Shown piece after piece: positions 38,147 through 49,147 of a stretch of 64,000 nt of DNA. The stretch lies in the sequence record PX092659.1. One strand, given 5' to 3'. Position numbers and translations under genes: made by a program. Every line of letters starts with the position of its first letter. The first letter of the stretch is position 1. The notes beneath the pieces are model-generated. The model did no database searches, was not told the DNA's origin, and saw only the letters and a program-made list of their open reading frames with translations. This DNA comes from a phage.

Positions 38147-38170
38147 TACCCGCATGTAACATCTGAAATA

Positions 38171-38205
38171 AGCCCTGCGTTTCCTGGAGAGCGCAGGGCT
38201 TTTCT
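38171..38205 (+). terminator. rho-independent terminator
   Basis: AGCCCTGCG ... CGCAGGGCT stem followed by TTTTCTG. Confidence 0.75.
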
Positions 38206-38221
38206 GTATTTAAGATAAAAG

Positions 38222-38256
38222 AAAAGCCCCTAAGTCTTTCGACTAGGGGCTTTATT
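38222..38256. terminator. bidirectional rho-independent terminator
   Basis: GCCCCTAAGTC tttc GACTAGGGGC with T-runs on both strands; ends the plus-strand SPFH unit and the minus-strand pair 38471-39901. Confidence 0.7.
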
Positions 38257-38470
38257 GTTTGGTTCTTTAGAACCATATACTCTTGTTACAGCAACCACCC
38301 ATACGGGAGGCCAATCTTGACTGAAAATCTACTCTAGGGGGCAGGATAAGAGTAGGCTTAAAGGCAAACGGATTGAACGCCGGTATTTGTGTAAACATTG
38401 CTGGAGAGCAACAACGTGCTACAGGCATTGGGCAGCACGAAATAGATTTTCTGCAACACATAATTTCTCC

Positions 38471-38887
38471 TTAGGAGTTATTACCACCATTTTGAGCTTT
38501 TGCAACTTGGCTTTGGCAGAAGCTATTAAACTTACCCATAAGTGATACAAGCTGTTTCCCATCCTCTGTCTTTGCGAAGTCTTCGAAAAGGGCTAGTACT
38601 GCCTGTCCTTCCGCAGAAACCTGCGGTTGTTGGGTTTGTTGCTGAACTTGCTGCTGAGGCACCTGTTGCTGCATTTGTTGAGGCATTTGCGACTGCCCGC
38701 TCATTTGCTGCATCATTTGCATAGGACTCACACTTCCAGGGTTTTGCTGGAGTTGTTGCTGCATCTGTTGCGCTTCTGCTAAACGCTGTTGCAATTGTTG
38801 TAAGTAGGGGTTATCCAGACCCGGAATGGGCTGCTGGGAGCCCATACTTTGATTAAGTCCGTTATTTACAAAACCATATTTACTCAT
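38471..38887 (-). CDS. hypothetical Gln-rich low-complexity protein
   Basis: 138 aa; about 35 percent Gln (QQLQQRLAEAQQMQQQLQQ...); part of the inverted two-gene module. Confidence 0.5.
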   Translation of the reverse strand: MSKYGFVNNGLNQSMGSQQPIPGLDNPYLQQLQQRLAEAQQMQQQLQQNPGSVSPMQMMQQMSGQSQMPQQMQQQVPQQQVQQQTQQPQVSAEGQAVLALFEDFAKTEDGKQLVSLMGKFNSFCQSQVAKAQNGGNNS

Positions 38888-38908
38888 AATGGGCTCCTCC
38901 CCTTAATA

Positions 38909-39901
38909 TTAAGCCGGCAGTTTAGCCTGCAGACCAGCCAGAGTCTGAGTGATAGCACCAAGACTTACAGCGATTTGATTAATTACCTGACCGTTAGCAC
39001 CGTTACCCGCAGCGATTGCTTCACGTAGGCGACATGCATCTAACTCATCCTGAATACGAGCAGTAGTTACACCAGCGATAGCAGTCTGAAGTTCACAGCA
39101 ACATTCAGCGATCTGACGTTCCAGAGAGTTCTGGTTAGCACACATCTGAGCCTGAACAGCGGCAAACTGGTTATTAGTTTGTAAAGTCTGCTGGAAAGCG
39201 ATCTGTGCAGAATCAAACTTATCTTGTGCACGAGCTATCTGATTAGCTGCGAAAGATTGATCAATCTGGCGAGAAAGATCGAACTGACCCTGAATAACGT
39301 TGCGAGTTTCCTGACAGATCTGATTAGACAGATTAGCACCTGTACCATAGATCGTAGTTAGTACAGACTGAGTATCACGGCTCTGGTTTTGGGATGTCTG
39401 GCTAAACCCATTGTTAACTGCGCTTAAAACAGCTCCAGTACCCTGGTTAGCTTCTGTACGAGTAGTGTTAATAGCTGCTAGAATACTAGCGGTATCTTGG
39501 TTCTGAAGTACTGCATCAACTGCGGTACCATCACCAACTACACCACGTCCACCGAATCCACCGAAACCACCGAATCCGCCTGTTAATAGAGCACCGATTA
39601 GGATAGCTCCGAATAGTCCCATACCTTCACCACCGAAAGCACCTGCGTTTGCTGGGTAACCACCCAGTAGGCCAGGGAAGCCACTAGTAAATACGTTTAC
39701 TGGTTCTTGCATTTTATGTTTTCCATATTTATGACAATGTTCATCGTCATCTTCTTCATCATCGTGTTCACGATGTTTTTCTTCGTAGGCTCTGACCTTC
39801 TCCCACTTTTTCTTATCTGATTCCTCGTGACGGTGCAGTTCTGCTGCAACGCTAGCGACGGTCTCAGGACTCTTAGCTACTTCTTCTGTCATTTTTGACA
39901 C
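38909..39901 (-). CDS. hypothetical membrane protein with glycine-zipper TM segment and Gln/Asn/Cys-rich C-terminal domain
   Basis: 330 aa; acidic/His-rich N-terminus, Gly-zipper TM (GLFGAILIGALLTGGFGGFGGFGG), Q/N/T-rich C-terminal half with Cys clusters (AECCCELQ); AGGAGGTG RBS. Confidence 0.55.
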   Translation of the reverse strand: MSKMTEEVAKSPETVASVAAELHRHEESDKKKWEKVRAYEEKHREHDDEEDDDEHCHKYGKHKMQEPVNVFTSGFPGLLGGYPANAGAFGGEGMGLFGAILIGALLTGGFGGFGGFGGRGVVGDGTAVDAVLQNQDTASILAAINTTRTEANQGTGAVLSAVNNGFSQTSQNQSRDTQSVLTTIYGTGANLSNQICQETRNVIQGQFDLSRQIDQSFAANQIARAQDKFDSAQIAFQQTLQTNNQFAAVQAQMCANQNSLERQIAECCCELQTAIAGVTTARIQDELDACRLREAIAAGNGANGQVINQIAVSLGAITQTLAGLQAKLPA

Positions 39902-39952
39902 CTCCTAGTATATAGAAAATGTGTGTCTCTTTGATCACTCATCCATAACATA

Positions 39953-39981
39953 TACTTTACACTACCCCAGCGAAAATGTCA
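39953..39981 (-). promoter_or_regulatory. second promoter class (minus): TTGACATTTTCGC-type
   Basis: Reverse complement reads TTGACA ttttcgctggggtagtg TAAAGT; shares the 13-nt TTGACATTTTCGC with 9576-9604. Confidence 0.55.
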
Positions 39982-40098
39982 AGGGGTCTTTAAAAATTGC
40001 CCCTGAATTTTTAGTGGGGTCACAAATTTTGGTCCTCACCATTTATCTGCTATCCTTAAGTGCCCTATGATTTTCCTCTAAAAAGTTAAAAAATTTGA

Positions 40099-40127
40099 TT
40101 GCTTGAATGCTAAATTCTCTGTATAAT
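40099..40127 (+). promoter_or_regulatory. sigma70-type early promoter: TTGCTT-N17-TATAAT
   Basis: Cassette match. Confidence 0.6.
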
Positions 40128-40157
40128 ATATCTATAAATTTGAAAGAGGAACCAAAT

Positions 40158-40676
40158 ATGAATGTTGATGAGCTAACACAGCACCTCTTATCTAGAGGAT
40201 TTGATACAGATAAATATCATTGCTGGTTAAGTCCGGAAGGATGGCTAACAGTCCCGTTGTATGACTTCTCTGGGATGTTGAGGGGCTATCAAACTTATAA
40301 TCCTTCTGCTCCAAAAGGTCATGGTAAGTGCCCCTTTGAAGCTAAATACTTTACTTATTCTACTACCCAGTGTGTATGGGGACTAGAAACTCTCAATGGA
40401 GATGAAAAAGTAGTATTGATTGCTGAATCTGTATTTAAGGCAGTTGCGTTACATAATGCTGGTTATCCAGCCCTAGCAATGTTGGGTTCTTCTCCAGGAA
40501 AAGCGTTATTAAAGCAACTGAAATTACTACCTTTTAAATTGGTAGCTGTCGGAGATAATGATCCTGCGGGTGAAAAATTTGCTAGAAAATTAAACGGCTT
40601 TGTTTCTCCCGTAGATGTGGATGAGATGTCTACCGAAAACTTGAAAAATTTTCTTGCTATGAAGCTAAATTTCTAA
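40158..40676 (+). CDS. small TOPRIM-domain-like protein
   Basis: ATG 40158 after GAAAGAGGAAC RBS (track ORF extends to 40107); TOPRIM-like Glu (LIAESVFK) and DxD (AVGDNDPAG). Confidence 0.45.
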   Translation: MNVDELTQHLLSRGFDTDKYHCWLSPEGWLTVPLYDFSGMLRGYQTYNPSAPKGHGKCPFEAKYFTYSTTQCVWGLETLNGDEKVVLIAESVFKAVALHNAGYPALAMLGSSPGKALLKQLKLLPFKLVAVGDNDPAGEKFARKLNGFVSPVDVDEMSTENLKNFLAMKLNF

Positions 40677-40682
40677 TATAAT
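40654..40682 (+). promoter_or_regulatory. sigma70-type early promoter: TTGCTA-N17-TATAAT (inside 3' end of previous ORF)
   Basis: Cassette match; would drive the tRNA-Ser/tRNA-Met pair. Confidence 0.55.
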
Positions 40683-40697
40683 ATATCTTATAAATTC

Positions 40698-40786
40698 GGA
40701 AGAATAGCATAACGGTATTGCAGCAGATTGCTAATCTGTCGGCTTGAAATATAGCCTTGTGGGTTCGATTCCCACTTCTTCCGCCA
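40698..40786 (+). tRNA. tRNA-Ser (anticodon GCT), class II
   Basis: Acceptor GGAAGAA/TTCTTCC, anticodon loop TTGCTAA, long variable arm, T-arm GTGGG-TTCGATT-CCCAC, G73-CCA. Confidence 0.75.
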
Positions 40787-40792
40787 AACATA

Positions 40793-40867
40793 GGGTCGGT
40801 AGCTTAAAGTTAAAGCGGTGGCCTCATAAGCTAACGAGTAGGAGTTAGATTCTCCTCCGACCCACCA
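40793..40867 (+). tRNA. tRNA with CAT anticodon (Met, fMet or Ile2 type)
   Basis: Perfect acceptor GGGTCGG/CCGACCC, D-stem GCTT/AAGC, anticodon loop CTCATAA, T-arm AGGAG-TTAGATT-CTCCT. Confidence 0.7.
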
Positions 40868-40881
40868 ATTAGGTACTGCGT

Positions 40882-41283
40882 ATGGAAAAGGTTGAATTTG
40901 AGTACTTTGGAGTTATTTTAATTGTACACTTAAATGGTACAATAGAAACTAAAGATAGAATAATAACACAACGAAATCAATATGGCGAGTATACTAGAAC
41001 TATAAAAGGAAAGGTACTGTCTCCACGTTGCAATGGTAAATCTGGGTATTTTCAGGTGAAGATTTGCAATAAGGGATTAGGTAAAAATGAGTATGTGCAC
41101 AGACTCGTATGGATGGCTTTCAACGGTGAAATACCGGAAGGCTATGAAATAGAGCACAAAGATGATGATAAGTCTAATAATGCTTTACCTAACCTAGAAT
41201 TATTCACAAGAAAGCAGAATATGGACAAAGTCTTAAATAAGATGACTAGAGATTCTCTAGGTCGTTTTGAAAAACTTAACTAG
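40882..41283 (+). CDS. HNH homing endonuclease (divergent copy) inside tRNA cluster
   Basis: 133 aa; HRLVWMAFNGEIPEGYEIEHKDDDKSNNALPNLELFTRKQN. Confidence 0.6.
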   Translation: MEKVEFEYFGVILIVHLNGTIETKDRIITQRNQYGEYTRTIKGKVLSPRCNGKSGYFQVKICNKGLGKNEYVHRLVWMAFNGEIPEGYEIEHKDDDKSNNALPNLELFTRKQNMDKVLNKMTRDSLGRFEKLN

Positions 41284-41291
41284 GAGACTAT

Positions 41292-41477
41292 ATGTCTAAG
41301 TTTCAAGAACTCAAGCAAGAGCTAGAAGAATGTGCCTGCCCTGAGTGTAGAGGAATTGGTGAAAGTTCTGATGCAGAAGCAGGAGATACTTTTTGCAATA
41401 TCTGGGTTTGCCCAACTTGCAATGGTACAGGTATTAATCCTAACTGCGGTATTTCCCTAGATATTGAGCGAGGATAA
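41292..41477 (+). CDS. hypothetical small Cys-rich protein (two CxxC pairs)
   Basis: 61 aa; CACPECRG ... CPTCNG. Confidence 0.45.
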   Translation: MSKFQELKQELEECACPECRGIGESSDAEAGDTFCNIWVCPTCNGTGINPNCGISLDIERG

Positions 41478-41578
41478 TACCTGTGAAACTAAAAGATTAT
41501 TATATTGGTTGGTTTGTGGGACTAGTAGTAGTATTTTCACTAGGCTATAATATGTATCAACTAATAAACTGATTACAT

Positions 41579-41655
41579 GGGGGTGTAATCGAATTGGCAT
41601 AGGTACTGGACTTAAAATTCAGGTTTTGTGGGTTCGAATCCCACCACCCCTACCA
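41579..41655 (+). tRNA. tRNA with TAA anticodon (Leu-type anticodon) but short variable arm
   Basis: Acceptor GGGGGTG/CACCCCT, anticodon stem CTGGA/TTCAG with loop CTTAAAA, 5-nt variable region, T-arm GTGGG-TTCGAAT-CCCAC, A73-CCA. Confidence 0.6.
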
Positions 41656-41830
41656 AATTAAGGAAATAAGATGTATAGACATCCACCTCCGCCAACACGT
41701 CGTTCCAGAGAAGTTATCCTCATGGAGTTGACTAAAAACTTCAAGGCAACTCTTGAAGATAGAGATTTAGGCACGGATGAAGACATTGATTTTATTTGTA
41801 GACTATTAAAGATGAAACTGGAGAAACAAC

Positions 41831-42037
41831 ATGGCTAATCCTGAAATTACCGCACAACGTTTCATGCTTAAAGGCATGATTGCTGAAGCAGGTATGACTC
41901 AAGAGGTTGCAGACTTTCATAAGCAATTTCTTGATATTATAACTCTAGCTAAAGAGACTGGAGAAAAAGAACACGGAGCAGCAATTATGGCTATATCTCT
42001 TATTAGTCTAGACTTGGCTGAAGAATCTGGAGTTTAG
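41831..42037 (+). CDS. hypothetical protein
   Basis: 68-aa track ORF; a 56-aa ORF at about 41671-41841 precedes it. Confidence 0.45.
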   Translation: MANPEITAQRFMLKGMIAEAGMTQEVADFHKQFLDIITLAKETGEKEHGAAIMAISLISLDLAEESGV

Positions 42038-42067
42038 CTCCTCCAAACAGAATTTTTAAAAATGTAC

Positions 42068-42097
42068 TTGCCTTTTGCTTTAAATTTCTGATATAAT
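42068..42097 (+). promoter_or_regulatory. sigma70-type promoter (TTGCCT-N18-TATAAT)
   Basis: Cassette-like with 18-nt spacer. Confidence 0.45.
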
Positions 42098-42127
42098 AGT
42101 TATATAAATTGATGAAGGAGTTAACGA

Positions 42128-42403
42128 ATGCAAAATCGTGTTATAGCAGCTGGTATTGAAAGTGCAATCTGTAAATCCTGGGAAGGCTGGGAAGGTGAGA
42201 TTGAATGGCTTTATTTCTATGATGTAGAACTTCTGCCGGAAGTTAAAGCTAAATGTGTTGAAGCTGGCATGGCTCCAGATGCAAAAGCTGATATTGATAT
42301 TTCAATGTCTGAACTTAAAGGTCGTGTAATTACTGTTAGTGATGAGGGCGAAGAAGTCTTCGAACTTCCATTCTCCTTAATTGTCACTCCTAAGTTCGAC
42401 TAA
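42128..42403 (+). CDS. hypothetical protein
   Basis: 91-aa track ORF after GAAGGAG RBS. Confidence 0.5.
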   Translation: MQNRVIAAGIESAICKSWEGWEGEIEWLYFYDVELLPEVKAKCVEAGMAPDAKADIDISMSELKGRVITVSDEGEEVFELPFSLIVTPKFD

Positions 42404-42439
42404 CTAATACAGCACTGAGCAAGTTCTTTAAAATTTGAC

Positions 42440-42468
42440 TTGCTCAGTGCTATAAAACTTGATATAAT
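42440..42468 (+). promoter_or_regulatory. sigma70-type early promoter: TTGCTC-N17-TATAAT
   Basis: Cassette match; drives the RNA-only unit 42496-42938. Confidence 0.55.
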
Positions 42469-42495
42469 AGTTATCTAATTTGGAAAGTTCTTTTT

Positions 42496-42589
42496 AAGGT
42501 AGTTCCTACTTTAGTAGAGTAAATTTTTGGCAGATGGCCCCACCATTTTACCGATAACTCCTAGTCAGTGCGGCAACACTGGCTACCTT
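42496..42589 (+). ncRNA. candidate tRNA-sized structured RNA (non-canonical, no consensus T-loop)
   Basis: Terminal 7-bp helix AAGGTAG/CTACCTT encloses three hairpins (CTAC-ttta-GTAG; ATGG-cccca-CCAT; CAGTG-cggcaa-CACTG); lies between promoter and tRNA-Tyr. Confidence 0.3.
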
Positions 42590-42600
42590 AAAGAGAATTT

Positions 42601-42687
42601 GGGCGTTTATTCCGTAAGTGGTAGCGGAGGGGATTGTAAATCCCTGGTCATTGCGACTCGAGTGGTTCGACTCCATTAACGCCCACC
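42601..42687 (+). tRNA. tRNA-Tyr (anticodon GTA), class II
   Basis: Acceptor GGGCGTT/AACGCCC, anticodon loop TTGTAAA, long variable arm, A73-CCA. Confidence 0.75.
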
Positions 42688-42695
42688 AAATTTAA

Positions 42696-42772
42696 GTCCT
42701 GTTAGACAAACGGGTAAAGTCACTACCCTTTCAAGGTAGGATTTGCGGGTTCGATCCCCGCACAGGACGCCA
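42696..42772 (+). tRNA. tRNA-Glu (anticodon TTC)
   Basis: Acceptor GTCCTGT/ACAGGAC, anticodon stem CTACC/GGTAG with loop CTTTCAA, T-arm GCGGG-TTCGATC-CCCGC. Confidence 0.8.
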
Positions 42773-42780
42773 ATTTCTGC

Positions 42781-42857
42781 ATTCCTAGAGTGTTACTGGA
42801 CAGCATGTCGGTCTCCAAAACCGTACGGTCTAGGTTCGAGTCCTAGTAGGTTTGCCA
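42781..42857 (+). tRNA. tRNA-Trp (anticodon CCA), two U-U mismatches in acceptor stem
   Basis: Anticodon loop CTCCAAA on stem CGGT/ACCG; T-arm CTAGG-TTCGAGT-CCTAG; acceptor ATTCCTA/TAGGTTT pairs at 5 of 7 positions. Confidence 0.55.
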
Positions 42858-42863
42858 AAATTT

Positions 42864-42938
42864 GCACCTTTAGCTGAGATGGATTAGCGCTTGCCTGAAG
42901 AGCTTGAGAGGTTCGTTCGATACGAACAGGGTGCACCA
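42864..42938 (+). tRNA. tRNA-Phe (anticodon GAA)
   Basis: Acceptor GCACCTT/AGGGTGC, D-stem GCTG/TAGC, anticodon loop CTGAAGA, T-arm GTTCG-TTCGATA-CGAAC. Confidence 0.65.
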
Positions 42939-42955
42939 AATTGAAGGAGCTGCTG

Positions 42956-43228
42956 ATGCATCCTGAAAACTTCTTTATTTACTGCGCGGATAAGTCGCTG
43001 AAACGTAGAATTAACAAAGTCTATCATTATCGTGCTAGTCAACAGCCTTATGTATATGCTTTTGACGGTGATCACATTCCACTAGAACAATTATCTTGTG
43101 ATTACATGATATTGAAGAACTTTGACGAGACGAAGATCTCAAGCGTTCATAATCGACAGAATCCCTTAACGTGGAAATATAAGAAGAAAAAGAAAGGCAT
43201 CAAATTCTTAAAAAATGTAGTTGCTTAG
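42956..43228 (+). CDS. hypothetical protein
   Basis: ATG 42956 after GAAGGAG (track ORF starts at TTG 42941). Confidence 0.45.
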   Translation: MHPENFFIYCADKSLKRRINKVYHYRASQQPYVYAFDGDHIPLEQLSCDYMILKNFDETKISSVHNRQNPLTWKYKKKKKGIKFLKNVVA

Positions 43229-43249
43229 TTTCTAAAAGTTCTGTATAAT
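43221..43249 (+). promoter_or_regulatory. sigma70-type early promoter: TTGCTT-N17-TATAAT (within 3' end of previous ORF)
   Basis: Cassette match. Confidence 0.55.
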
Positions 43250-43297
43250 AATTACATAAATTGAACTGGAGAAGCAACATGACAGAACAAGATAAAC

Positions 43298-43373
43298 CGA
43301 CCGTTGGCTGAATGGCTTAGGCGAAGGATTGCAAATCCTTTTTATGTGAGTTCAAATCTCATGCGGTCGTCCA
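43298..43373 (+). tRNA. tRNA-Cys (anticodon GCA)
   Basis: Acceptor CGACCGT/GCGGTCG, anticodon stem AAGGA/TCCTT with loop TTGCAAA, T-arm GTGAG-TTCAAAT-CTCAT. Confidence 0.7.
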
Positions 43374-43380
43374 AATTTTA

Positions 43381-43463
43381 GGGTCGTTAGCCAAGCGGTT
43401 TGGCGGCGGATTGTTAATCCGTGTCGAAAGACAACGTAGGTTCGAATCCTACACGGCCCGCCA
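43381..43463 (+). tRNA. class II-shaped tRNA with GTT (Asn-type) anticodon and G73
   Basis: Acceptor GGGTCGT/ACGGCCC, D-stem GCCA/TGGC, anticodon stem GCGGA/TCCGT with loop TTGTTAA, 13-nt variable arm with GTC/GAC stem, T-arm GTAGG-TTCGAAT-CCTAC. Confidence 0.55.
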
Positions 43464-43565
43464 AATTCTGTGTAGAGTTAAGTAAACCGGTAGCCAACCA
43501 GCTATCATTGCTGACATCGAATTCAGCCACAGATACCATTTTCATTAATAACTGAGGAAACAAGC

Positions 43566-43751
43566 ATGTCCAAGAATGTAATTGCGCAGCTAGAAGTTCA
43601 TCGTGATAGCACTATTAACAATATTGAAGTTGAAAAGAAATACATCGAAGAACTTAAACACGATATACTAGTAAGTCTCAATCGTCTTAATGTACGAAAA
43701 GAGTTTCTTAAAGAACTTAATGCAGCTATTGAAAAACTCAAAGCTGAGTAA
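43566..43751 (+). CDS. hypothetical protein
   Basis: 61-aa track ORF after GAGGAAACAAGC RBS. Confidence 0.45.
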   Translation: MSKNVIAQLEVHRDSTINNIEVEKKYIEELKHDILVSLNRLNVRKEFLKELNAAIEKLKAE

Positions 43752-43760
43752 ATGAATTAT

Positions 43761-43837
43761 GCGACCGGGGCTGGCTTGGTAATGGTACTCCCCTGTCACG
43801 GGAGAGAATGTGGGTTCGAATCCCATCGGTCGCGCCA
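43761..43837 (+). tRNA. tRNA-Asp (anticodon GTC)
   Basis: Acceptor GCGACCG/CGGTCGC, anticodon stem CTCCC/GGGAG with loop CTGTCAC, T-arm TGGG-TTCGAAT-CCCA. Confidence 0.8.
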
Positions 43838-44013
43838 AATAAGGTAGGTTAGCTATGGAATGTAGGGAGTTTACTCCAGAAGAGATAGAGCAGATAAAAG
43901 AATCTGCTATGAAAAATGCTAGAATATCTCTGTCACTGGAAGGTATCATTATTAGTGATGTAAACTTTGAAAAAATCAAAGCCATAGCTGATGAACTGGA
44001 AAAGTAATTTAAT

Positions 44014-44089
44014 ACATCCATAGCTCAATGGTTAGAGCTACCGCCTCTTAAGCGGAGGGTTCTAGGTTCAAGTCCTAGTGGGTGTACCA
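44014..44089 (+). tRNA. tRNA-Lys (anticodon CTT)
   Basis: Acceptor ACATCCA/TGGGTGT, D-arm GCTCAATGGTTAGAGC, anticodon loop CTCTTAA, T-arm CTAGG-TTCAAGT-CCTAG. Confidence 0.65.
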
Positions 44090-44114
44090 AATTAATTTAG
44101 TATGAGAATATACT

Positions 44115-44462
44115 ATGCGTAATGCTAAAGAAGAGCTGTTACTCGCCTTAAAAAATACCAATTCTAAAGTTAAGTGTATTAAAATAGAATTTGGGTATTA
44201 TGGGGACAAAAAAGTCTGGGTATTACCTTTAGGTTATACAGAAGAAGACATTGAGGGGTTTCTTAATAACCTAGACTTTGAATATGATTCTGGATACGGT
44301 GGACAATTACTTTATGGTAATGTATGGTTTGCCGATGGAACTTGGCTAGAACGTGGGGAATATGATGGTGCTGAGTGGTGGGAATACAAGGCTACACCAG
44401 CAATCCCAGAGGAATGCCGAACAATTAATGGTGAAGTAGATAATACTTTACGGTTAAACTAA
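44115..44462 (+). CDS. hypothetical protein
   Basis: 115-aa track ORF. Confidence 0.5.
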   Translation: MRNAKEELLLALKNTNSKVKCIKIEFGYYGDKKVWVLPLGYTEEDIEGFLNNLDFEYDSGYGGQLLYGNVWFADGTWLERGEYDGAEWWEYKATPAIPEECRTINGEVDNTLRLN

Positions 44463-44855
44463 TAAAATTTCAGTGCAGAACACGGAGCTAGCAATTCGGA
44501 AGTGCTGACTCATGATAAGCTGCCTATGTACTTGCAAAGCGGTCGTGTCCAAGACTCGGACTCTTGCACTGAAAACAATCAAACATTCTAGCGTGGTTGA
44601 TGGGGAAACCAGCTTGGCTAGGGCAGAAGCTCGTTCGATTCGAGTGAAAGAATGGTTCTCGTAAGTCCGCACAAGTGATAGCAGGTTCGAGTCCTGTCTA
44701 GAATGATACTATAAAGTTTACTTATTGAGTAGGTTCCGATAGATCGGCGGGTCTATTCTGGCAGTTAAGAGAGGTCTCGCAAACTTCTTTGTCAGCCGTG
44801 GGGTTGGTAGCCTCCAGGTGGCCTACACAATAAGTAAATTTATTAAAAATTCATT

Positions 44856-44884
44856 TGCTATTTCGCTTAATTCTCGGTATAATA
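44856..44884 (+). promoter_or_regulatory. sigma70-type early promoter: TTGCTA-N17-TATAAT
   Basis: Cassette match (coordinates here may be off by 1 nt). Confidence 0.55.
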
Positions 44885-44915
44885 TATCTTATAAAGTGTT
44901 GAGAAGGAAAGCAAA

Positions 44916-45113
44916 ATGAAAAAAGTTTTACTGCTGTCTGTATTCCTACTTACTGGTTGTTTTAAACTTGACTCAACCATTAATAAAGAGTATGAATTTG
45001 CTAAAAATTTCTGTGGCGGAGAGAGTAATATAAAGAATTTCTACATATATAGTACAATTCCTAGTACCGTTTATTGTGTAGACGGACGAATTATTAATAT
45101 TCCTCCACAATAA
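44916..45113 (+). CDS. small lipoprotein (signal peptide with lipobox LLTGC)
   Basis: 65 aa; MKKVLLLSVFLLTGC then mature Cys; AAGGAAAGC RBS. Confidence 0.55.
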   Translation: MKKVLLLSVFLLTGCFKLDSTINKEYEFAKNFCGGESNIKNFYIYSTIPSTVYCVDGRIINIPPQ

Positions 45114-45122
45114 AAGAATTAA

Positions 45123-45198
45123 CAGTGCGTAGCGCAGTTGGTAGCGTGGGAGCCTTGGATGCTTCGGGTCGCAGGTTCGAGTCCTGCCGCACTGACCA
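45123..45198 (+). tRNA. tRNA-Pro (anticodon TGG)
   Basis: Acceptor CAGTGCG/CGCACTG, D-arm GCGCAGTTGGTAGCGT, anticodon stem GGAGC/GCTTC with loop CTTGGAT, T-arm GCAGG-TTCGAGT-CCTGC. Confidence 0.75.
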
Positions 45199-45204
45199 AA
45201 CAAT

Positions 45205-45282
45205 TGCGGGTTAGATCTCTGGTAGAGATCGCTAGTCTCATAAGCTAGAAAGAGGTAGGTTCGATTCCTGCACCCGCTTCCA
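45205..45282 (+). tRNA. tRNA with CAT anticodon (Met/Ile2 type), 1-72 mismatch
   Basis: Anticodon stem CTAGT/GCTAG with loop CTCATAA; T-arm GTAGG-TTCGATT-CCTGC; acceptor TGCGGGT/ACCCGCT has a U-U at position 1-72. Confidence 0.6.
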
Positions 45283-45471
45283 TTTTAATAGAGGGTTTCG
45301 AAATGAAAGTATTTCGATTAGTAGTAAGTGACAAACGTTTAGGTAAGAATACCTCAAAATCCTTACTTGCTCATTATGGAAAAGATGAGAAAGAAGTAAT
45401 GGCGGAGTTTGGGATTAATCACCCTTACTTGAAAGTTCACTCTATTAAAGAAGTATATAATGGTTACTAAT

Positions 45472-45550
45472 AGATCGCTAGCTCAATAGGTTTAGTAGCA
45501 TCCGACTTTTAATCGGAAGGTTCTGGGTTCGAGTCCCAGGCGATCTACCA
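45472..45550 (+). tRNA. tRNA-Lys (anticodon TTT)
   Basis: Perfect acceptor AGATCGC/GCGATCT, anticodon stem TCCGA/TCGGA with loop CTTTTAA, T-arm CTGGG-TTCGAGT-CCCAG. Confidence 0.8.
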
Positions 45551-45568
45551 ATTTCAAGAAAAACGCAG

Positions 45569-45597
45569 TTGCTTAATGCGTAATTTCTTGTTACAAT
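45569..45597 (+). promoter_or_regulatory. sigma70-type early promoter: TTGCTT-N17-TACAAT
   Basis: Cassette variant; followed by about 235 nt of ORF-free leader before tRNA-Ala. Confidence 0.55.
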
Positions 45598-45835
45598 ATT
45601 TATATAAATTGATGAGGAGAAATCCTCGTCATAGTTCACTAAGGTATTAGCTCGACCTAGGACTGGCTGCCAAAAAGCACGATCCCTACGATTCGGGAGA
45701 AGTTCTAGATTAGTCCACTAGATTCAGCGGCAACTGAATAGTGTATCGGGTTTGCGAGATGACGCGGTTCCTTCCGCTCGAAGCGAAGGTGCTGTAGTTA
45801 CGCCGAGCTAATAGCCTTAGTAAACTAAAGAATTT

Positions 45836-45910
45836 GGGCGAATAGTGTCAGCGGGAGCACACCAGACTTGCAATCTGGTAGGGAGGGTTCGAGTCCCTCT
45901 TTGTCCACCA
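45836..45910 (+). tRNA. tRNA-Ala (anticodon TGC)
   Basis: Acceptor GGGCGAA/TTTGTCC with G3-U70 wobble (Ala identity pair), anticodon stem CCAGA/TCTGG with loop CTTGCAA, T-arm GAGGG-TTCGAGT-CCCTC. Confidence 0.8.
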
Positions 45911-45915
45911 AATAC

Positions 45916-45992
45916 GCGTGATTGATGGAATTGGCATACATACCGTCCTTAGAAGTCGGGTTTTGAGGGTTCGAATCCCTTGTCACGCACCA
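45916..45992 (+). tRNA. tRNA with TAG anticodon (Leu-type anticodon) but short variable arm
   Basis: Acceptor GCGTGAT/GTCACGC, anticodon loop CTTAGAA on stem CCGTC/GTCGG (one mismatch), 5-nt variable region, T-arm GAGGG-TTCGAAT-CCCTT, A73. Confidence 0.55.
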
Positions 45993-46104
45993 AATTTGAT
46001 GGTCAGAGTAAATTAAACCTACTATCTCGGTTGAGCTGTTTTAATGGGTTCGAATCCCAGCGAGGCGTAACTGCCTGGCGTGATAGAGGCATCATCTTAT
46101 TACT

Positions 46105-46195
46105 GGAAGAGCAAATCGAATTGGCGACGAAAACCGCTTGGAAAGTGGCTGACTGGTAAAACGGCTTGAGAGTTCAAATCTCTCCTCTTCCGCCA
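46105..46195 (+). tRNA. tRNA-Ser (anticodon GGA), class II
   Basis: Acceptor GGAAGAG/CTCTTCC, anticodon loop TTGGAAA on 4-bp stem, long variable arm, T-arm GAGAG-TTCAAAT-CTCTC, G73-CCA. Confidence 0.6.
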
Positions 46196-46214
46196 AACAC
46201 TTGAGGTAATAATA

Positions 46215-46562
46215 ATGTTAGCAAAAGATAAAGCTCTAGAGTTTTTAGCATCTTTAGATGAAGATAAGATTATAGATGCTGCTGAAAAAGCTGGAATGCC
46301 CGATTTAACATATCTGGAACGTGCTATTATTGCTCGTGATAAACTACAGAAAGAGTTTGCTATTGCCCAGGAGGAGTTTTATACTCGCTATAACGCTCTT
46401 ACTAAGCAAATTGAAAATGAGTGTTCCCATACTTGGGGAGTAACAGAAAACCTAGGTAATGATCACGATGGCTGGTCTAAAGTAAAAATTACCTACTATC
46501 ATCGTAGGACTTGTAAAATTTGTGGAAAAGTAGAAGATTTCACTAGTACGAGTGACTATTAG
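46215..46562 (+). CDS. hypothetical protein
   Basis: 115-aa track ORF after GAGGTAATAATA RBS. Confidence 0.5.
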   Translation: MLAKDKALEFLASLDEDKIIDAAEKAGMPDLTYLERAIIARDKLQKEFAIAQEEFYTRYNALTKQIENECSHTWGVTENLGNDHDGWSKVKITYYHRRTCKICGKVEDFTSTSDY

Positions 46563-46575
46563 TATAATAAATACT

Positions 46576-46665
46576 AGAAGATAGGACGTAGTGGTACGTA
46601 ACTGGTCTTGAAAACCAGCCCGCTGTAGCGATACGGTGATGGTTCGACTCCATTATCTTCTGCCA
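46576..46665 (+). tRNA. tRNA-Ser (anticodon TGA), class II
   Basis: Acceptor AGAAGAT/ATCTTCT, anticodon stem CTGGT/ACCAG with loop CTTGAAA, long variable arm, T-arm GATGG-TTCGACT-CCATT, G73-CCA. Confidence 0.75.
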
Positions 46666-47228
46666 ATTAACTATAAGGAAGTCTTATGAGCAAAACAGTT
46701 ACTGTAACAATGAAGGACGGTAAAAAATTTAAAGCATGTCTTCATGAAACAGATAAGGGGTGGATGGCTTATTTGCCACACCTAGATTCCACCGGGTACG
46801 GAATGACCCAACGTGAAGCTATTGTTGATGCTTTAAATGAGGCTTCTGCTGGTTTATAAAAAATTCTTGAAGTATGCCGGAATCGGTAGACGGGGCTGCC
46901 TAAAAGGTTTATAGGGAACATCCACTCCCTGCAACATACCTCATAAAGCGGCTGAGATAAATGGTCTATCTCGTGAAGGTTCAAGTCCTTCTGCTTCTTG
47001 ATACATCTATGGCTCAAAGTGTAACGGTGCTATTTGATGCTCTTGGTAAGACTTCCCCGACATGCGTTCGGGAGTAAGCTGCTAAGACTAGAGTAGAAGA
47101 GTTTCTGAGAGCCGCCACAATTGAAAATTCGTACTCGTCTTGAGCTGCGTGCAATAGGAGATAACTTGATTAGTATTCTAGAACATGCTAATTGAGGATG
47201 GTTTCGCTAACCCTGCGAGTTTTCAATT

Positions 47229-47305
47229 GTGGCTATATCATAATTGGTTAATGATCCTGATTGTGAATCAGGCCTATGTGGATTCGAATTCCACTAGCCA
47301 CCCCA
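47229..47305 (+). tRNA. tRNA-His (anticodon GTG)
   Basis: Acceptor GTGGCTA/TAGCCAC, C73, anticodon stem CCTGA/TCAGG with loop TTGTGAA, T-arm GTGGA-TTCGAAT-TCCAC. Confidence 0.8.
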
Positions 47306-47330
47306 AATTAACTTAAATAGGAAATAAAAT

Positions 47331-47528
47331 ATGGCTGATTTCTGCAAACAATGCTCCATTGATATGTGGGGCAGAGATACTGGTGATCTTTCTGGTTTGA
47401 TTACAGAAGCTGAGGTCAAAGAAGGTTATGGTGCAGTTGTGATTTGCGAAGGATGCGGAGTTATTCGAGTAGATCATGAAGGCAAACGTTTAAAAGAACC
47501 GGAAAACTTAGGAGAAACAAATGAGTAA
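47331..47528 (+). CDS. hypothetical small Cys-containing protein
   Basis: 65-aa track ORF; CKQC ... CEGCG. Confidence 0.45.
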   Translation: MADFCKQCSIDMWGRDTGDLSGLITEAEVKEGYGAVVICEGCGVIRVDHEGKRLKEPENLGETNE

Positions 47529-47757
47529 TGCTTTAATTAGTGAAATTATGTTAACACGTCTTGCAGAACTGCAAACTCTTCGAGATGAATCTCAGAATAA
47601 CTTAGCCTATCATAAACAGATGGTAGATACTCTTACTACTCGTATTGAAACTTACGAGCGTGATATTGCAGCATTACAGGCTCTTTTCTCAGTATCAGCA
47701 CCAGATACTTTAGAGCAGCCTGTTGTATCTCAGCCAGTAGAAACAGCATCTAGTTAA
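47521..47757 (+). CDS. hypothetical protein
   Basis: 78-aa track ORF, start overlaps upstream stop. Confidence 0.45.
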   Translation: MSNALISEIMLTRLAELQTLRDESQNNLAYHKQMVDTLTTRIETYERDIAALQALFSVSAPDTLEQPVVSQPVETASS

Positions 47758-47766
47758 TAGCATTTT

Positions 47767-47842
47767 TGGAGTGTAGATCAATTGGCAGATCGTCGGCCTC
47801 TGACTCCGAAGGTTCCTGGTTCGATCCCAGGCACTCCAGCCA
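47767..47842 (+). tRNA. tRNA-Gln (anticodon CTG)
   Basis: Acceptor TGGAGTG/CACTCCA, D-stem GATC/GATC, anticodon loop CTCTGAC, T-arm CCTGG-TTCGATC-CCAGG. Confidence 0.75.
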
Positions 47843-47848
47843 AATAAT

Positions 47849-47924
47849 TGGAGAGTAGTGTAACGGTTAGCACAACGGCCTTTGACTCCGTTAATGGTAG
47901 GTTCGATTCCTCCTTCTCCAGCCA
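47849..47924 (+). tRNA. tRNA-Gln (anticodon TTG)
   Basis: Acceptor TGGAGAG/TTCTCCA, anticodon loop CTTTGAC; near-duplicate of the adjacent Gln(CTG) gene. Confidence 0.7.
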
Positions 47925-47932
47925 AGTAATAA

Positions 47933-48008
47933 GCGGTTAAGCACACGGGTTGTGTCGCAGGCCTTCCAAGCCTCGCTGAGTAGGGTTCGATTCCCTCTAG
48001 CCGCTCCA
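47933..48008 (+). tRNA. tRNA-Gly (anticodon TCC)
   Basis: Acceptor GCGGTTA/TAGCCGC, anticodon stem AGGC/GCCT with loop CTTCCAA, T-arm AGGG-TTCGATT-CCCT. Confidence 0.65.
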
Positions 48009-48024
48009 ACTTTAAGGAAACGTT

Positions 48025-48276
48025 ATGCACGTTTTTGAGTTTCGTAATAAAAGTACCGATAAACGAGTTATTGTTATTGGAGAAACATACCGAGCATACG
48101 AACAAACTGACGGCTCTGTCATCCTGAATGATGAGAAAGGAGGTTTTAGCTTTTATCCAGAAGAACCTTATGAAGAGTTTCGAAAACAATTTAACCTAGA
48201 CTGGAGAAAGCATTTAAACACTGTTGCTTCATCTGTAGTATTGCCAACTACCAGTACTGTACTATCTAATGGCTGA
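48025..48276 (+). CDS. hypothetical protein
   Basis: 83-aa track ORF; a 52-aa ORF follows at about 48271-48432. Confidence 0.45.
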   Translation: MHVFEFRNKSTDKRVIVIGETYRAYEQTDGSVILNDEKGGFSFYPEEPYEEFRKQFNLDWRKHLNTVASSVVLPTTSTVLSNG

Positions 48277-48443
48277 TAACCTAAAAGTCAAGATCGACAA
48301 ACAAAAGAAACGTGTAGAAGTAGAGATTGGTGAAGAACGTGTAGCCTTCACCTTTGAATTCCTACAACAAATGGCAATGGTAGTTATGACTGATAAGTCT
48401 CCTGTTATTGAAAAAGAAATCCCGTTGAAATAACGGGATCATC

Positions 48444-48518
48444 GCTCCTAAAGCATTGCTGGCGATGCAGTTGCCTTGTAAGCATCTGAACCGGGTTCGA
48501 TTCCTGGTGGGAGCACCA
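48444..48518 (+). tRNA. tRNA-Thr (anticodon TGT)
   Basis: Acceptor GCTCCTA/TGGGAGC, D-arm GCATTGCTGGCGATGC, anticodon loop CTTGTAA, T-arm CCGGG-TTCGATT-CCTGG. Confidence 0.75.
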
Positions 48519-48533
48519 AATTTAAAAATTCAT

Positions 48534-48562
48534 TTGCTTTCTCTCTTATTTATTGTTATAAT
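48534..48562 (+). promoter_or_regulatory. sigma70-type early promoter: TTGCTT-N17-TATAAT
   Basis: Cassette match. Confidence 0.6.
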
Positions 48563-48592
48563 ATTTATATAAATTAATGAGAGGGAAACCAA

Positions 48593-48883
48593 ATGAAACG
48601 TTATCTTTCTGTTGTGTTCCAAACTGGTGGTCAACGCTATACCTATGAATTTCCTAGCTCTTGGAAGATCAAAGAAGGTGATCAAGTAGTAGTGTTAACA
48701 CCGCGAGATGGATATAAAGTAGTAACGGTTAAACAAGTATTCCCAAAAGATCATGAACCAGCTAAAGGCATTCGCTATAAGATGATTCATGGTGTGGTTC
48801 GTCAAGTACCACGAACTGAGGTAGAAGTAGATAAGACTGGAGAAGCTAAATTCCGTTATACTTCTTACCTAGATAGTGTGTGA
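48593..48883 (+). CDS. hypothetical protein
   Basis: 96-aa track ORF after GAGAGGGAAACC RBS. Confidence 0.5.
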   Translation: MKRYLSVVFQTGGQRYTYEFPSSWKIKEGDQVVVLTPRDGYKVVTVKQVFPKDHEPAKGIRYKMIHGVVRQVPRTEVEVDKTGEAKFRYTSYLDSV

Positions 48884-48898
48884 TGTAAATATTTTAAT

Positions 48899-48975
48899 GC
48901 TTCGGTAGCTTAGCGATCTAAAGCACTCGGCTGATAACCGAGAGATCGGGGGTTTAAATCCCTCCCGGAGTACCA
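48899..48975 (+). tRNA. tRNA-Ile (anticodon GAT)
   Basis: Acceptor GCTTCGG/CCGGAGT, D-stem GCTT/AAGC, perfect anticodon stem CTCGG/CCGAG with loop CTGATAA, T-arm GGGGG-TTTAAAT-CCCTC. Confidence 0.75.
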
Positions 48976-49071
48976 AATTTAGGAATTAAGACTATGCGTC
49001 CAGGAAAGTTTAAAAAAGCTAGTTGGTCTAAAGAGTATAAAGAATACTTACTTAGTCTAATAAAACATAAT

Positions 49072-49147
49072 AGTTAGTTGGCAGAGTGGTTATGCACCTC
49101 CTTCATACGGAGCGACTACAGTGGTTCAAATCCACTACTAACTACCA
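49072..49147 (+). tRNA. tRNA with CAT anticodon (Met/fMet/Ile2 type)
   Basis: Perfect acceptor AGTTAGT/ACTAACT, anticodon stem CTCC/GGAG with loop TTCATAC, T-arm AGTGG-TTCAAAT-CCACT. Confidence 0.7.

What the first reader, a model, noticed from the sequence alone, without database searches (positions are those of the whole stretch)
40793..49147. Three separate CAU-anticodon tRNAs within a 26-gene tRNA cluster
CAU tRNAs at 40793-40867, 45205-45282 and 49072-49147 have different bodies, probably covering initiator, elongator Met and lysidine-modified Ile2 functions. The copy at 45205 has a mismatched 1-72 pair, an initiator-like feature. The cluster also has two Gln and three Ser genes and is interleaved with promoter cassettes, small ORFs and an HNH gene.
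Basis: partly seen in the sequence, partly recalled or inferred. Interest (0 to 1): 0.35.

Follow-up and report, generated by a model that had tools for sequence, protein, structure and literature searches.

The report
Phage T5-type Met, fMet, Ile2 tRNAs
The window comes from a T5-like phage, and its three CAU-anticodon tRNA genes are the initiator, elongator-methionine and AUA-reading isoleucine tRNAs already annotated in phage T5 and its relatives, so the finding is correct but ordinary.

Summary
Three CAU tRNA genes lie at exactly the stated coordinates. All three fold as cloverleaves and pass Rfam's tRNA threshold. They sit in a 26-gene tRNA cluster with two Gln genes, three Ser genes, an HNH_3 ORF and repeated T5-type promoters.

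The window is a T5-like phage (Demerecviridae).
- The gene at 45205-45282 is 100% identical to T5 tRNAfM, which the T5 record annotates as "initiator tRNA fMet".
- The gene at 49072-49147 is 100% identical to T5 tRNAM.
- The gene at 40793-40867 occupies the slot of T5 tRNAI2(CAU) but is a different allele, identical to the gene that phage DT57C annotates as tRNA-Ile(CAU).

Identity elements agree with this three-way split. The fMet copy has a 1:72 mismatch, G2-C71, C3-G70, G4-C69, A11-U24 and G30-C40. The Met copy has U4-A69 and A5-U68. The Ile2-type copy has G3-C70, C5-G68 and G27·A43.

Two caveats remain. The Ile2-type copy has U4-A69, not the C4-G69 that E. coli TilS prefers. The initiator has only the middle one of the three canonical anticodon-stem G-C pairs.

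AUA codons are about 3.7 times more frequent here than in an E. coli sample, which fits a need for an Ile2 tRNA.

Verdict: already known, low interest.

The parts
40793..40867 (+). tRNA(CAU) no. 1, Ile2-type. It is predicted to be a TilS substrate that reads AUA once C34 is converted to lysidine. It is an alternative allele at the slot of T5 tRNAI2.
   Evidence: Gene calls: ARAGORN; Rfam 60.6 bits. It is only about 55% identical to T5 I2 but 100% identical to DT57C tRNA-Ile(CAU). Key elements are G3-C70, U4-A69, C5-G68, G27.A43, G30-C40, A37, A38 and A73. Compensatory changes occur within its family.
45205..45282 (+). tRNA(CAU) no. 2, initiator (fMet) type.
   Evidence: 100% identical to T5 tRNAfM, annotated 'initiator tRNA fMet'. 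Elements: U1.U72, G2-C71, C3-G70, G4-C69, A11-U24, A29-U41/G30-C40/U31.G39 and U73. The 1:72 position is unpaired in 8 of 9 distinct family sequences.
49072..49147 (+). tRNA(CAU) no. 3, elongator Met type.
   Evidence: 100% identical to T5 tRNAM. Elements: A1-U72, C11-G24, U4-A69, A5-U68, C30-G40 and A73. Its closest E. coli CAU tRNA is metT at 36 of 60 positions, against 28 for ileX and 27 for fMet.
48899..48975 (+). tRNA-Ile(GAU), the AUU/AUC reader. With the three CAU genes it completes the AUN codon box.
   Evidence: ARAGORN; Rfam 64.7 bits.
37090..49147 (+). T5-type tRNA gene cluster: 26 tRNA genes, all on the + strand, interleaved with small ORFs, stable-RNA genes and early promoters.
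   Evidence: Same gene order as T5, phiP4 and DT57C.
46105..46195 (+). tRNA-Ser(GGA), missed by ARAGORN and Rfam.
   Evidence: Identical to the annotated DT57C tRNA-Ser(GGA).
47933..48008 (+). tRNA-Gly(UCC), missed by ARAGORN.
   Evidence: Identical to T5 tRNAG1(UCC). Weak Rfam hit of 30.9 bits.
40882..41283 (+). Free-standing HNH_3 endonuclease ORF (133 aa), 15 nt downstream of CAU tRNA no. 1.
   Evidence: Pfam PF13392, E = 9.6e-20. Rare: only 2 phage records above 95% identity. Unrelated to T5 hegA beyond the HNH motif.
40654..40694 (+). T5-type early promoter cassette just upstream of Ser(GCU) and CAU no. 1.
   Evidence: TTGCTA-17-TATAAT. Regex match. T5 annotates promoter P15b at the same place.
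44855..44895 (+). T5-type early promoter cassette upstream of a small ORF, Pro(UGG) and CAU no. 2.
   Evidence: T5 promoter P13a lies at the same place.
48534..48573 (+). T5-type early promoter cassette upstream of a small ORF, Ile(GAU) and CAU no. 3.
   Evidence: T5 promoter P11 lies at the same place.

Best explanation
The three genes are the standard bacterial trio of CAU-anticodon tRNAs, carried by a T5-like phage inside its large tRNA cluster and serviced by host enzymes.

1. Gene 45205-45282 is the phage initiator. Host MetRS charges it through the CAU anticodon. Host formyltransferase formylates it because of the unpaired 1:72 position together with G2-C71, C3-G70 and G4-C69. G30-C40 lets it work in the ribosomal P site.

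2. Gene 49072-49147 is an elongator tRNA-Met. It has a paired 1:72 and a Y11:R24 pair. It carries U4-A69 and A5-U68, the pairs that keep E. coli TilS off tRNA-Met.

3. Gene 40793-40867 is an Ile2-type tRNA. Host TilS converts C34 to lysidine. IleRS then charges it and it reads AUA. AUA is common in this AT-rich phage and rare in the host.

Each gene sits in its own promoter-driven unit, directly behind another tRNA (Ser, Pro and Ile respectively).

Shown here: the genes, their folds, their identity or homology to annotated T5 and DT57C genes, the identity elements, conservation with compensatory changes, and the codon bias. Inferred: charging, formylation, lysidine formation and use in translation.
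For: The window is T5-like, about 96% identical to Tequintavirus and related genomes. T5 RefSeq annotates tRNAfM, tRNAM and tRNAI2 in the same order. A review lists tRNA-Ile2, tRNA-Met and tRNA-fMet for T5 and cites Chen et al. [quoted passage not shown]

CAU2 and CAU3 are 100% identical to the T5 genes.

CAU2 (initiator):
- The formylase determinants are the 1:72 mismatch (major) and G2-C71, C3-G70, G4-C69 (minor) (PMC9976931). All are present.
- A11-U24 is an fMet-only discriminator (PMC1635315) and is present.
- G30-C40 is the essential member of the three anticodon-stem G-C pairs (PMC5389676) and is present.
- Across 9 distinct family sequences, 1:72 is U.U, C.U or U.C, and U-A once. G2-C71, C3-G70, A11-U24 and the A-U/G-C/U.G lower anticodon stem never vary. 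Seven other pairs change on both sides.

CAU3 (elongator Met):
- U4-A69 and A5-U68 are the E. coli tRNA-Met anti-determinants for TilS (PMC2500205).
- Its best E. coli match is metT.

CAU1 (Ile2-type):
- G3 and C70 are reported only in tRNA-Ile(CAU) (PMC1635315). G3:C70 is a TilS element in Burkholderia (PMC11947777).
- C5-G68 is invariant in its family, while 4:69 varies as U-A, C-G and A-U.
- It has G27.A43 instead of the TmcA determinant C27-G43. It shares G27.A43 with phage T4 tRNA-Ile(CAU).
- An 89%-identical Klebsiella phage homologue is annotated tRNA-Ile, while that phage's other two CAU genes are annotated Met.

Codon usage: AUA is 12.7 per 1000 codons in the window (19% of Ile codons) against 3.4 per 1000 (6%) in 49 kb of E. 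coli, using the same method. No other tRNA in the cluster can read AUA.
Against: CAU1:
- It has U4-A69, which in E. coli tRNA-Met acts against TilS.
- It has G29.U41 instead of the IleRS element C29-G41.
- Over 60 structural positions it is slightly nearer E. coli metT (34) than ileX (31).
- Most GenBank records label the identical sequence tRNA-Met.

CAU2:
- It lacks two of the three canonical G-C pairs. Its third pair is U31.G39 rather than the G31.U39 of natural variants.
- It has U73 instead of A73.

CAU3 needs a bulged C to form C27-G43.

No tRNAscan-SE isotype models were available. No modification or charging data were obtained. The 1975 T5 paper could not be read here.
Confidence: 0.68

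Rival explanations
1. Gene 40793-40867 is not an Ile2 tRNA but a second elongator tRNA-Met. Under this reading the enterobacterial TilS rejects it because of U4-A69. C34 then stays unmodified, MetRS charges it and it reads AUG.
For: U4-A69 is a negative element for E. coli TilS (PMC2500205). The gene is slightly more similar to E. coli metT than to ileX. It is annotated tRNA-Met in most records with the identical sequence. Unmodified tRNA-Ile(CAU) behaves as tRNA-Met (PMC1635315).
Against: G3-C70 is not seen in Met or fMet tRNAs. C5-G68 is invariant in the family. The T5 I2 allele at the same slot also has U4-A69 and C5-G68. G27.A43 matches T4 tRNA-Ile. A family member has C4-G69 together with C5-G68. 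The phage already has a Met elongator. It uses AUA heavily and has no other AUA reader. The 'Met' labels come from tools that do not separate Ile2 from Met.
Confidence: 0.2
2. Gene 45205-45282 does not act as an ordinary initiator. Under this reading it is an elongator-like Met tRNA, or a spare or decoy that survives host nucleases aimed at tRNA-fMet, because its anticodon stem lacks the three G-C pairs needed for normal P-site selection.
For: Only G30-C40 of the three G-C pairs is present, and position 73 is U. Enteric VapC toxins cut tRNA-fMet between A38 and C39 (PMC4105405), and this tRNA has G39. Phage tRNAs are proposed to carry nuclease-evading changes (PMC10264068).
Against: All the acceptor-stem formylation determinants and A11-U24 are present and invariant. 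The middle G-C pair alone sustains E. coli (PMC5389676). T5 is reported to encode a formylatable Met tRNA (title of Chen et al. 1975). The unpaired 1:72 argues against an elongator role. This rests on general knowledge of EF-Tu and peptidyl-tRNA hydrolase, not on a test here.
Confidence: 0.1
3. One or more of the three genes is a decaying pseudogene with no function.
For: CAU2 has the lowest Rfam score of the three (43.6 bits), and the tRNA repertoire varies among relatives: DT57C has no fMet gene. T5 marks one neighbouring Gln gene as a pseudogene.
Against: All three fold. They are conserved, nearly or fully identical, across roughly 20 or more T5-like genomes. Homologous families exist in Klebsiella phages, with compensatory stem changes: 95% of cells are paired, against 34-56% when the partners are slid. 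All three encode CCA ends.
Confidence: 0.03

Closest known systems
Phage T5 tRNAfM(CAU) T5t14, tRNAM(CAU) T5t01 and tRNAI2(CAU) T5t23 (NC_005859)
   Same: Same cluster, same gene order and same neighbours (Pro-fM, Ile1-M, Ser3-I2). The fM and M genes are 100% identical to the window genes.
   Different: The window gene at the I2 slot is a different sequence, about 55% identical. The window also lacks T5 tRNA-Val and the hegA, hegC and hegD genes. It has Lys(CUU), Leu(UAA) and a different HNH ORF.
Phage DT57C tRNA-Ile(CAU) ACQ32_gt014, with identical genes in Shivani, SHSML-45 and others (63 records)
   Same: 100% identical to window 40793-40867 and in the same position after Ser(GCU).
   Different: DT57C has no fMet gene. 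In the 29 loci sampled here, the window is the only one that combines this allele with the T5 fM and M genes.
E. coli tRNA-fMet (metY), tRNA-Met (metT) and tRNA-Ile2 (ileX)
   Same: Same three-way division of labour and the same class-defining elements. For fMet these are the 1:72 mismatch, G2-C71, C3-G70, G4-C69, A11-U24 and G30-C40. For Met they are U4-A69 and A5-U68. For Ile2 they are C5-G68, G30-C40 and a non-Watson-Crick 27:43.
   Different: The bodies are only 50-67% alike.
- The phage fMet has U.U instead of C.A at 1:72, U73, and an A-U/G-C/U.G lower anticodon stem.
- The phage Met has U32 and C38 in the anticodon loop.
- The phage Ile2-type has U4-A69, G3-C70, and a U19-A56 elbow pair in place of G19-C56.
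Phage T4 tRNA-Ile(CAU) (T4t002)
   Same: A coliphage-encoded CAU tRNA annotated isoleucyl-tRNA. It has C5-G68, G27.A43 and U28-A42, as in the window gene.
   Different: T4 has C3-G70 and C4-G69. The rest of the body differs.
Natural 'unconventional' initiator tRNAs of mycoplasmas and rhizobia (au/GC/gu anticodon stems)
   Same: Only the middle G30-C40 pair is kept (PMC5389676).
   Different: The third pair here is U31.G39 (pyrimidine:purine), not G31.U39. The bearer is a phage that uses E. coli or Salmonella ribosomes.

Membership tests
Bacterial initiator tRNA-fMet (gene 45205-45282) | CAU anticodon with an unpaired 1:72 position | tested here: met
   U1.U72. The position is unpaired in 8 of 9 distinct family sequences, as U.U, C.U or U.C.
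Bacterial initiator tRNA-fMet (gene 45205-45282) | Formyltransferase minor determinants G2-C71, C3-G70, G4-C69 and A73 | tested here: inconclusive
   The three base pairs are present. Position 73 is U, not A. The determinant list is from PMC9976931.
Bacterial initiator tRNA-fMet (gene 45205-45282) | A11-U24 and G12-C23 in the D stem | tested here: inconclusive
   A11-U24 is present and invariant. Position 12:23 is U-A here and G-C in the Klebsiella phage homologue. The rule is from PMC1635315.
Bacterial initiator tRNA-fMet (gene 45205-45282) | Three consecutive G-C pairs at 29:41, 30:40 and 31:39 | tested here: not met
   The pairs are A-U, G-C and U.G. Only the middle pair is kept, and this is the one reported as essential and sufficient in E. 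coli (PMC5389676).
Bacterial initiator tRNA-fMet (gene 45205-45282) | Is formylated and initiates translation | not testable with these tools
   Reported for T5 in Chen et al. 1975, known here only by its title. The paper is not held.
tRNA-Ile2, the lysidine-dependent AUA reader (gene 40793-40867) | E. coli TilS positive determinants C4-G69 and C5-G68 | tested here: inconclusive
   C5-G68 is present and invariant in the family. Position 4:69 is U-A here, C-G in Roth37 and A-U in GAP32. Determinants are from PMC2500205.
tRNA-Ile2, the lysidine-dependent AUA reader (gene 40793-40867) | G3 or A3 with C70 or U70, reported never to occur in Met or fMet tRNAs | tested here: met
   G3-C70 is invariant in the family. 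The rule is from PMC1635315.
tRNA-Ile2, the lysidine-dependent AUA reader (gene 40793-40867) | Lacks the TmcA (tRNA-Met acetylase) determinants C27-G43 and C30-G40 | tested here: met
   G27.A43 and G30-C40. T4 tRNA-Ile has the same 27:43.
tRNA-Ile2, the lysidine-dependent AUA reader (gene 40793-40867) | IleRS elements A37, A38, A73, U12-A23 and C29-G41 | tested here: inconclusive
   All are present except C29-G41, which is G.U here and G-C in relatives. The element list is from PMC9976931.
tRNA-Ile2, the lysidine-dependent AUA reader (gene 40793-40867) | Lysidine at position 34 and charging with Ile | not testable with these tools
   No modification or charging data were obtained.
Elongator tRNA-Met (gene 49072-49147) | Paired 1:72 and a Y11:R24 pair (not an initiator) | tested here: met
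   A1-U72 and C11-G24.
Elongator tRNA-Met (gene 49072-49147) | U4-A69 and A5-U68, the anti-determinants for TilS | tested here: met
   Both are present. Source: PMC2500205.
Elongator tRNA-Met (gene 49072-49147) | C27-G43 and C30-G40 (TmcA elements) and C3-G70 | tested here: inconclusive
   C30-G40 is present. C27-G43 forms only if a C is bulged out. That C varies to U in relatives, and the Klebsiella phage homologue has a plain C27-G43. Position 3:70 is U-A.
T5-like (Demerecviridae) tRNA gene cluster | Sequence similarity and gene order matching T5 and its relatives | tested here: met
   606 phage records match, the best at about 96% identity. The gene order is as in T5, phiP4 and DT57C.

The most novel reading that the evidence does not exclude
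The phage initiator tRNA is a nuclease-proof replacement for host tRNA-fMet. Across T5-like phages and the one Sugarland-like Klebsiella phage compared, it keeps a pyrimidine.pyrimidine 1:72 mismatch (U-A in the Klebsiella phage), U73 and an invariant A29-U41/G30-C40/U31.G39 stem with G39. G39 sits at the bond that enteric VapC toxins cut. Under this reading the phage can keep initiating translation when the host destroys its own initiator.

Separately, the two unrelated Ile2-type alleles at one slot may be swapped between phages by the adjacent homing endonucleases.
Probability: 0.12. Interest if true: 0.5.

Novelty: already known. Interest (0 to 1): 0.13.

Why it matters
It adds little new biology. 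T5 has been known since the 1970s to encode Met, fMet and two Ile tRNAs, and the reference genome already labels the three CAU genes.

There are three practical points.
1. Public records are inconsistent. The identical 40793-type gene is called tRNA-Met in most records and tRNA-Ile in a few, so AUA-decoding capacity is under-annotated in T5-like phages.
2. The Ile2 slot holds two unrelated alleles. Both have U4-A69 and C5-G68, which would be a simple test case for how strict enterobacterial TilS really is.
3. The phage initiator works with only one of the three canonical G-C pairs. This is relevant to current ideas that phage tRNAs escape host tRNA nucleases.

Tried and rejected
1. Scan of bacterial genomes for the CAU1 anticodon arm (GTGGCCTCATAAGC). 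The first 120 matches were all chance hits outside tRNA genes, so nothing was learned about a bacterial source.

2. Scans of viral contigs for the CAU1 T arm. The specific pattern found only the six already known carriers. The loose pattern gave mostly chance hits, plus unrelated tRNA-Gly and tRNA-Asp genes with the same A56 T loop.

3. Overall similarity to the three E. coli CAU tRNAs. It classifies CAU2 and CAU3 clearly but not CAU1 or T5 I2, so I did not rely on it for Ile2.

4. The reference alignments of Silva et al. 2006, which would have allowed profile scoring, are not held. Chen et al. 1975 and Winther & Gerdes 2011 are not held either. No tRNAscan-SE isotype models were available, and I had no reference set from which to build separate Ile2, Met and fMet covariance models.

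5. I considered whether the HNH ORF is the T5 hegA gene that follows tRNAI2 in T5. It is not: the two share only the HNH motif.

6. A fuzzy regex search timed out and was replaced by blastn.

7. The generic sigma-70 scan is not enriched over shuffles (29 found against 32 expected). The promoter claim therefore rests on the repeated T5-type cassette and the T5 annotation, not on that count.

Full report

Yes. ARAGORN reports 24 tRNA genes, all on the + strand, between 37090 and 49147. Three of them have a CAU anticodon, at 40793-40867, 45205-45282 and 49072-49147.

Each of the three is drawn as a complete cloverleaf with an encoded CCA end. Rfam's tRNA model scores them 60.6, 43.6 and 51.5 bits against a threshold of 29.

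The bodies differ. Over 60 structurally aligned positions the three share only 27-32. The 45205 gene has U1 opposite U72.

Two further tRNA genes were missed by ARAGORN (Ser(GGA) also by Rfam; Gly(UCC) has only a weak sub-threshold Rfam hit) but are identical to annotated genes of relatives. They are Ser(GGA) at 46105-46195 and Gly(UCC) at 47933-48008.

The ORF at 40882-41283 is an HNH_3 endonuclease (Pfam E = 9.6e-20). Repeated TTGCT-N17-TATAAT...ATAAA cassettes are present.

**2. What the window is**

The region matches 606 phage records. The best match is about 96% identical, and all the best matches are T5-like phages of Salmonella and Escherichia.

The reference T5 genome (NC_005859) annotates the same cluster with the same order and the same promoters. 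It names three CAU genes:
- tRNAI2(CAU), directly after Ser3(GCU)
- tRNAfM(CAU), "initiator tRNA fMet", directly after Pro(UGG)
- tRNAM(CAU), after Ile1(GAU)

A review table lists tRNA-Ile1, Ile2, Met and fMet for T5. [quoted passage not shown] I could not read the 1975 paper itself.

**3. The three genes compared with T5**

The window genes at 45205 and 49072 are 100% identical to T5 tRNAfM and tRNAM.

The gene at 40793 is not the T5 I2 gene. The two are only about 55% identical. It is a second allele at the same slot.

In 29 T5-like loci, the slot after Ser(GCU) holds the T5-type gene in 24 and the window-type gene in 6. No locus has both.

The window-type sequence occurs in 63 phage records.
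- It is identical in DT57C, DT571/2, Shivani, SHSML-45 and others.
- It is 89% identical in Sugarland-like Klebsiella phages.
- It is 88% identical in the jumbo Cronobacter phage GAP32.
- DT57C annotates it tRNA-Ile(CAU), but most other records call it tRNA-Met.
- Klebsiella phage Roth37 calls its homologue tRNA-Ile and its two other CAU genes tRNA-Met.

**4. Identity elements**

Gene 45205 (initiator):
- The formyltransferase reads the unpaired 1:72 position first, helped by A73, G2-C71, C3-G70 and G4-C69 (PMC9976931). The 45205 gene has the mismatch and all three pairs, but U73.
- It has A11-U24, which Silva et al. found only in fMet tRNAs (PMC1635315).
- It does not have the three G-C pairs of the anticodon stem. 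Its pairs are A29-U41, G30-C40 and U31.G39.
- Shetty et al. showed that the middle pair is the essential one and can sustain E. coli. They also showed that natural au/GC/gu initiators exist (PMC5389676).
- In nine distinct family sequences, 1:72 is U.U, C.U or U.C, and U-A once in the Klebsiella phage.
- G2-C71, C3-G70, A11-U24 and the three lower anticodon-stem pairs never vary. Seven other pairs change on both sides, and 95% of cells pair.
- This pattern is what selection on an initiator would give.

Gene 49072 (elongator Met):
- It has A1-U72 and C11-G24, so it is an elongator.
- It has U4-A69 and A5-U68, the pairs that block TilS on E. coli tRNA-Met (PMC2500205).
- It has C30-G40.
- Its closest E. 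coli CAU tRNA is metT (36 of 60 positions, against 28 and 27).
- Its anticodon loop (U32, C38) differs from the host's.
- C27-G43 forms only with a bulged C. That C varies in relatives.

Gene 40793 (Ile2-type), evidence for:
- It has G3-C70. Silva et al. report G3 or C70 only in tRNA-Ile(CAU). G3:C70 is a TilS element in Burkholderia (PMC11947777).
- C5-G68 is invariant in its family, while 4:69 changes with compensation (U-A, C-G, A-U) and 49:65 does too.
- It has G27.A43 and G30-C40, not the acetylase determinants of tRNA-Met.
- Phage T4 tRNA-Ile(CAU) has the same G27.A43 and U28-A42.

Gene 40793, evidence against:
- It has U4-A69 where E. coli TilS prefers C4-G69.
- It has G29.U41 instead of C29-G41.
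- Its overall similarity leans slightly towards metT (34 against 31).

The T5 I2 allele also has U4-A69 and C5-G68. Both alleles at this slot therefore share the same half-match to the E. coli TilS rule.

**5. Why the phage would need them**

The window is 39% G+C. In 63 long ORFs, AUA makes up 12.7 codons per 1000 and 19% of Ile codons. In 49 kb of E. coli K-12 treated the same way, the figures are 3.4 per 1000 and 6%.

The only other Ile tRNA in the cluster is GAU. A GAU anticodon reads AUU and AUC; this is general knowledge, not tested here.

An Ile2 supply therefore fits the codon-compensation idea.

Each CAU gene lies in its own promoter unit, behind another tRNA:
- promoter 40654-40694, then Ser, then CAU1
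- promoter 44855-44895, then a small ORF, then Pro, then CAU2
- promoter 48534-48573, then a small ORF, then Ile, then CAU3

These positions correspond to the annotated T5 promoters P15b, P13a and P11. Co-transcription is inferred, not shown.

**6. Rivals**

The main rival is that gene 40793 is a second Met elongator because the host TilS rejects U4-A69. I give this about 0.2.

A lesser rival is that gene 45205 is not a normal initiator but a nuclease-resistant spare. Enteric VapC toxins cut tRNA-fMet between A38 and C39 (PMC4105405), and this tRNA has G39. Phage tRNAs have been proposed to carry such escape changes (PMC10264068). This could be true in addition to an initiator role. It is untested.

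Pseudogene status is unlikely, given the conservation and the compensatory changes.

**7. Comparison with what is known, and verdict**

This is the known T5 set of Met, fMet and Ile2 tRNAs in a mosaic T5-like genome. No single database record matches the whole Ser-CAU1-HNH-Leu stretch well. The best match is phage YJin-2024a at 91% coverage. Every part is nevertheless already known.

Novelty: already known. Interest is low.

My confidence is about 0.85 for each of the fMet and Met calls, about 0.7 for the Ile2 call, and 0.68 for the whole three-way assignment.

Noticed in passing
window 41579-41655 and 45916-45992: The two tRNA-Leu genes (UAA and UAG) are only 77 nt long with a 5-nt variable loop, so they are class-I shaped. 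Their D arm nevertheless looks Leu-like. T5 Leu1(UAG) and E. coli leuW are 85-nt class II tRNAs with a long extra arm. The short form is present in 569 phage records, including BF23, Felixounavirus and Klebsiella phages, where it is annotated tRNA-Leu. Whether LeuRS charges them was not examined.
   Followed up: partly
window 40793-40867; also L204, L208 and other viral loci: The CAU1 family has the T loop UUAGAKU (A56 instead of C56) and the D loop AAAGUUA (U19 instead of G19). This suggests a U19-A56 elbow pair replacing the near-universal G19-C56. Unrelated phage tRNA-Gly(GCC) genes show the same pairing of ..GU.. D loops with UUAGA T loops.
   Followed up: partly
window 36460-37089, 43466-43538, 44584-44829, 45645-45816, 46866-47227: These stretches correspond to the T5 'stable RNAs of unknown function' RNAX, RNA3, RNA2, RNAIV, RNA2H, RNA1, RNAI and RNAIII, at 85-100% identity. 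Some contain tRNA-like pieces: Rfam gives weak tRNA hits at 36516-36587 (30.7 bits) and 46868-46999 (25.2 bits).
   Followed up: partly
window 40882-41283: The HNH_3 ORF next to the variant Ile2-type gene is rare. Only two phage records exceed 95% identity, for example YJin-2024a. It is unrelated to T5 hegA, which follows tRNAI2 in T5. T5 HNH endonucleases in the tRNA region are described as homing enzymes (PMC2330249). This may explain the allele swap, but it was not tested.
   Followed up: partly
L002 (T5) 15087-15164 and L022: ARAGORN does not detect the annotated T5 tRNAI2(CAU) gene in T5 itself, although blastn finds it. Its T stem has mismatches. Relatives show a compensatory switch between A30-U40 and G30-C40 (7 against 14 loci). 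Automated counts of CAU tRNAs in T5-like phages will therefore often be one short.
   Followed up: partly
window 37090-49147 compared with T5: The tRNA repertoire is mosaic. The window lacks T5 tRNA-Val(UAC) and the hegA, hegC and hegD genes. It has Lys(CUU) at 44014-44089 and Leu(UAA), which T5 lacks. DT57C has only 16 tRNAs and no fMet gene.
   Followed up: partly
window 40158-40676, 37199-38146, 49171-49539: Three flanking ORFs have Pfam matches. One is a small Toprim-domain protein, annotated 'DNA primase' in relatives. One is an SPFH/Band 7 protein. One is a GrcA-like glycyl-radical cofactor.
   Followed up: no
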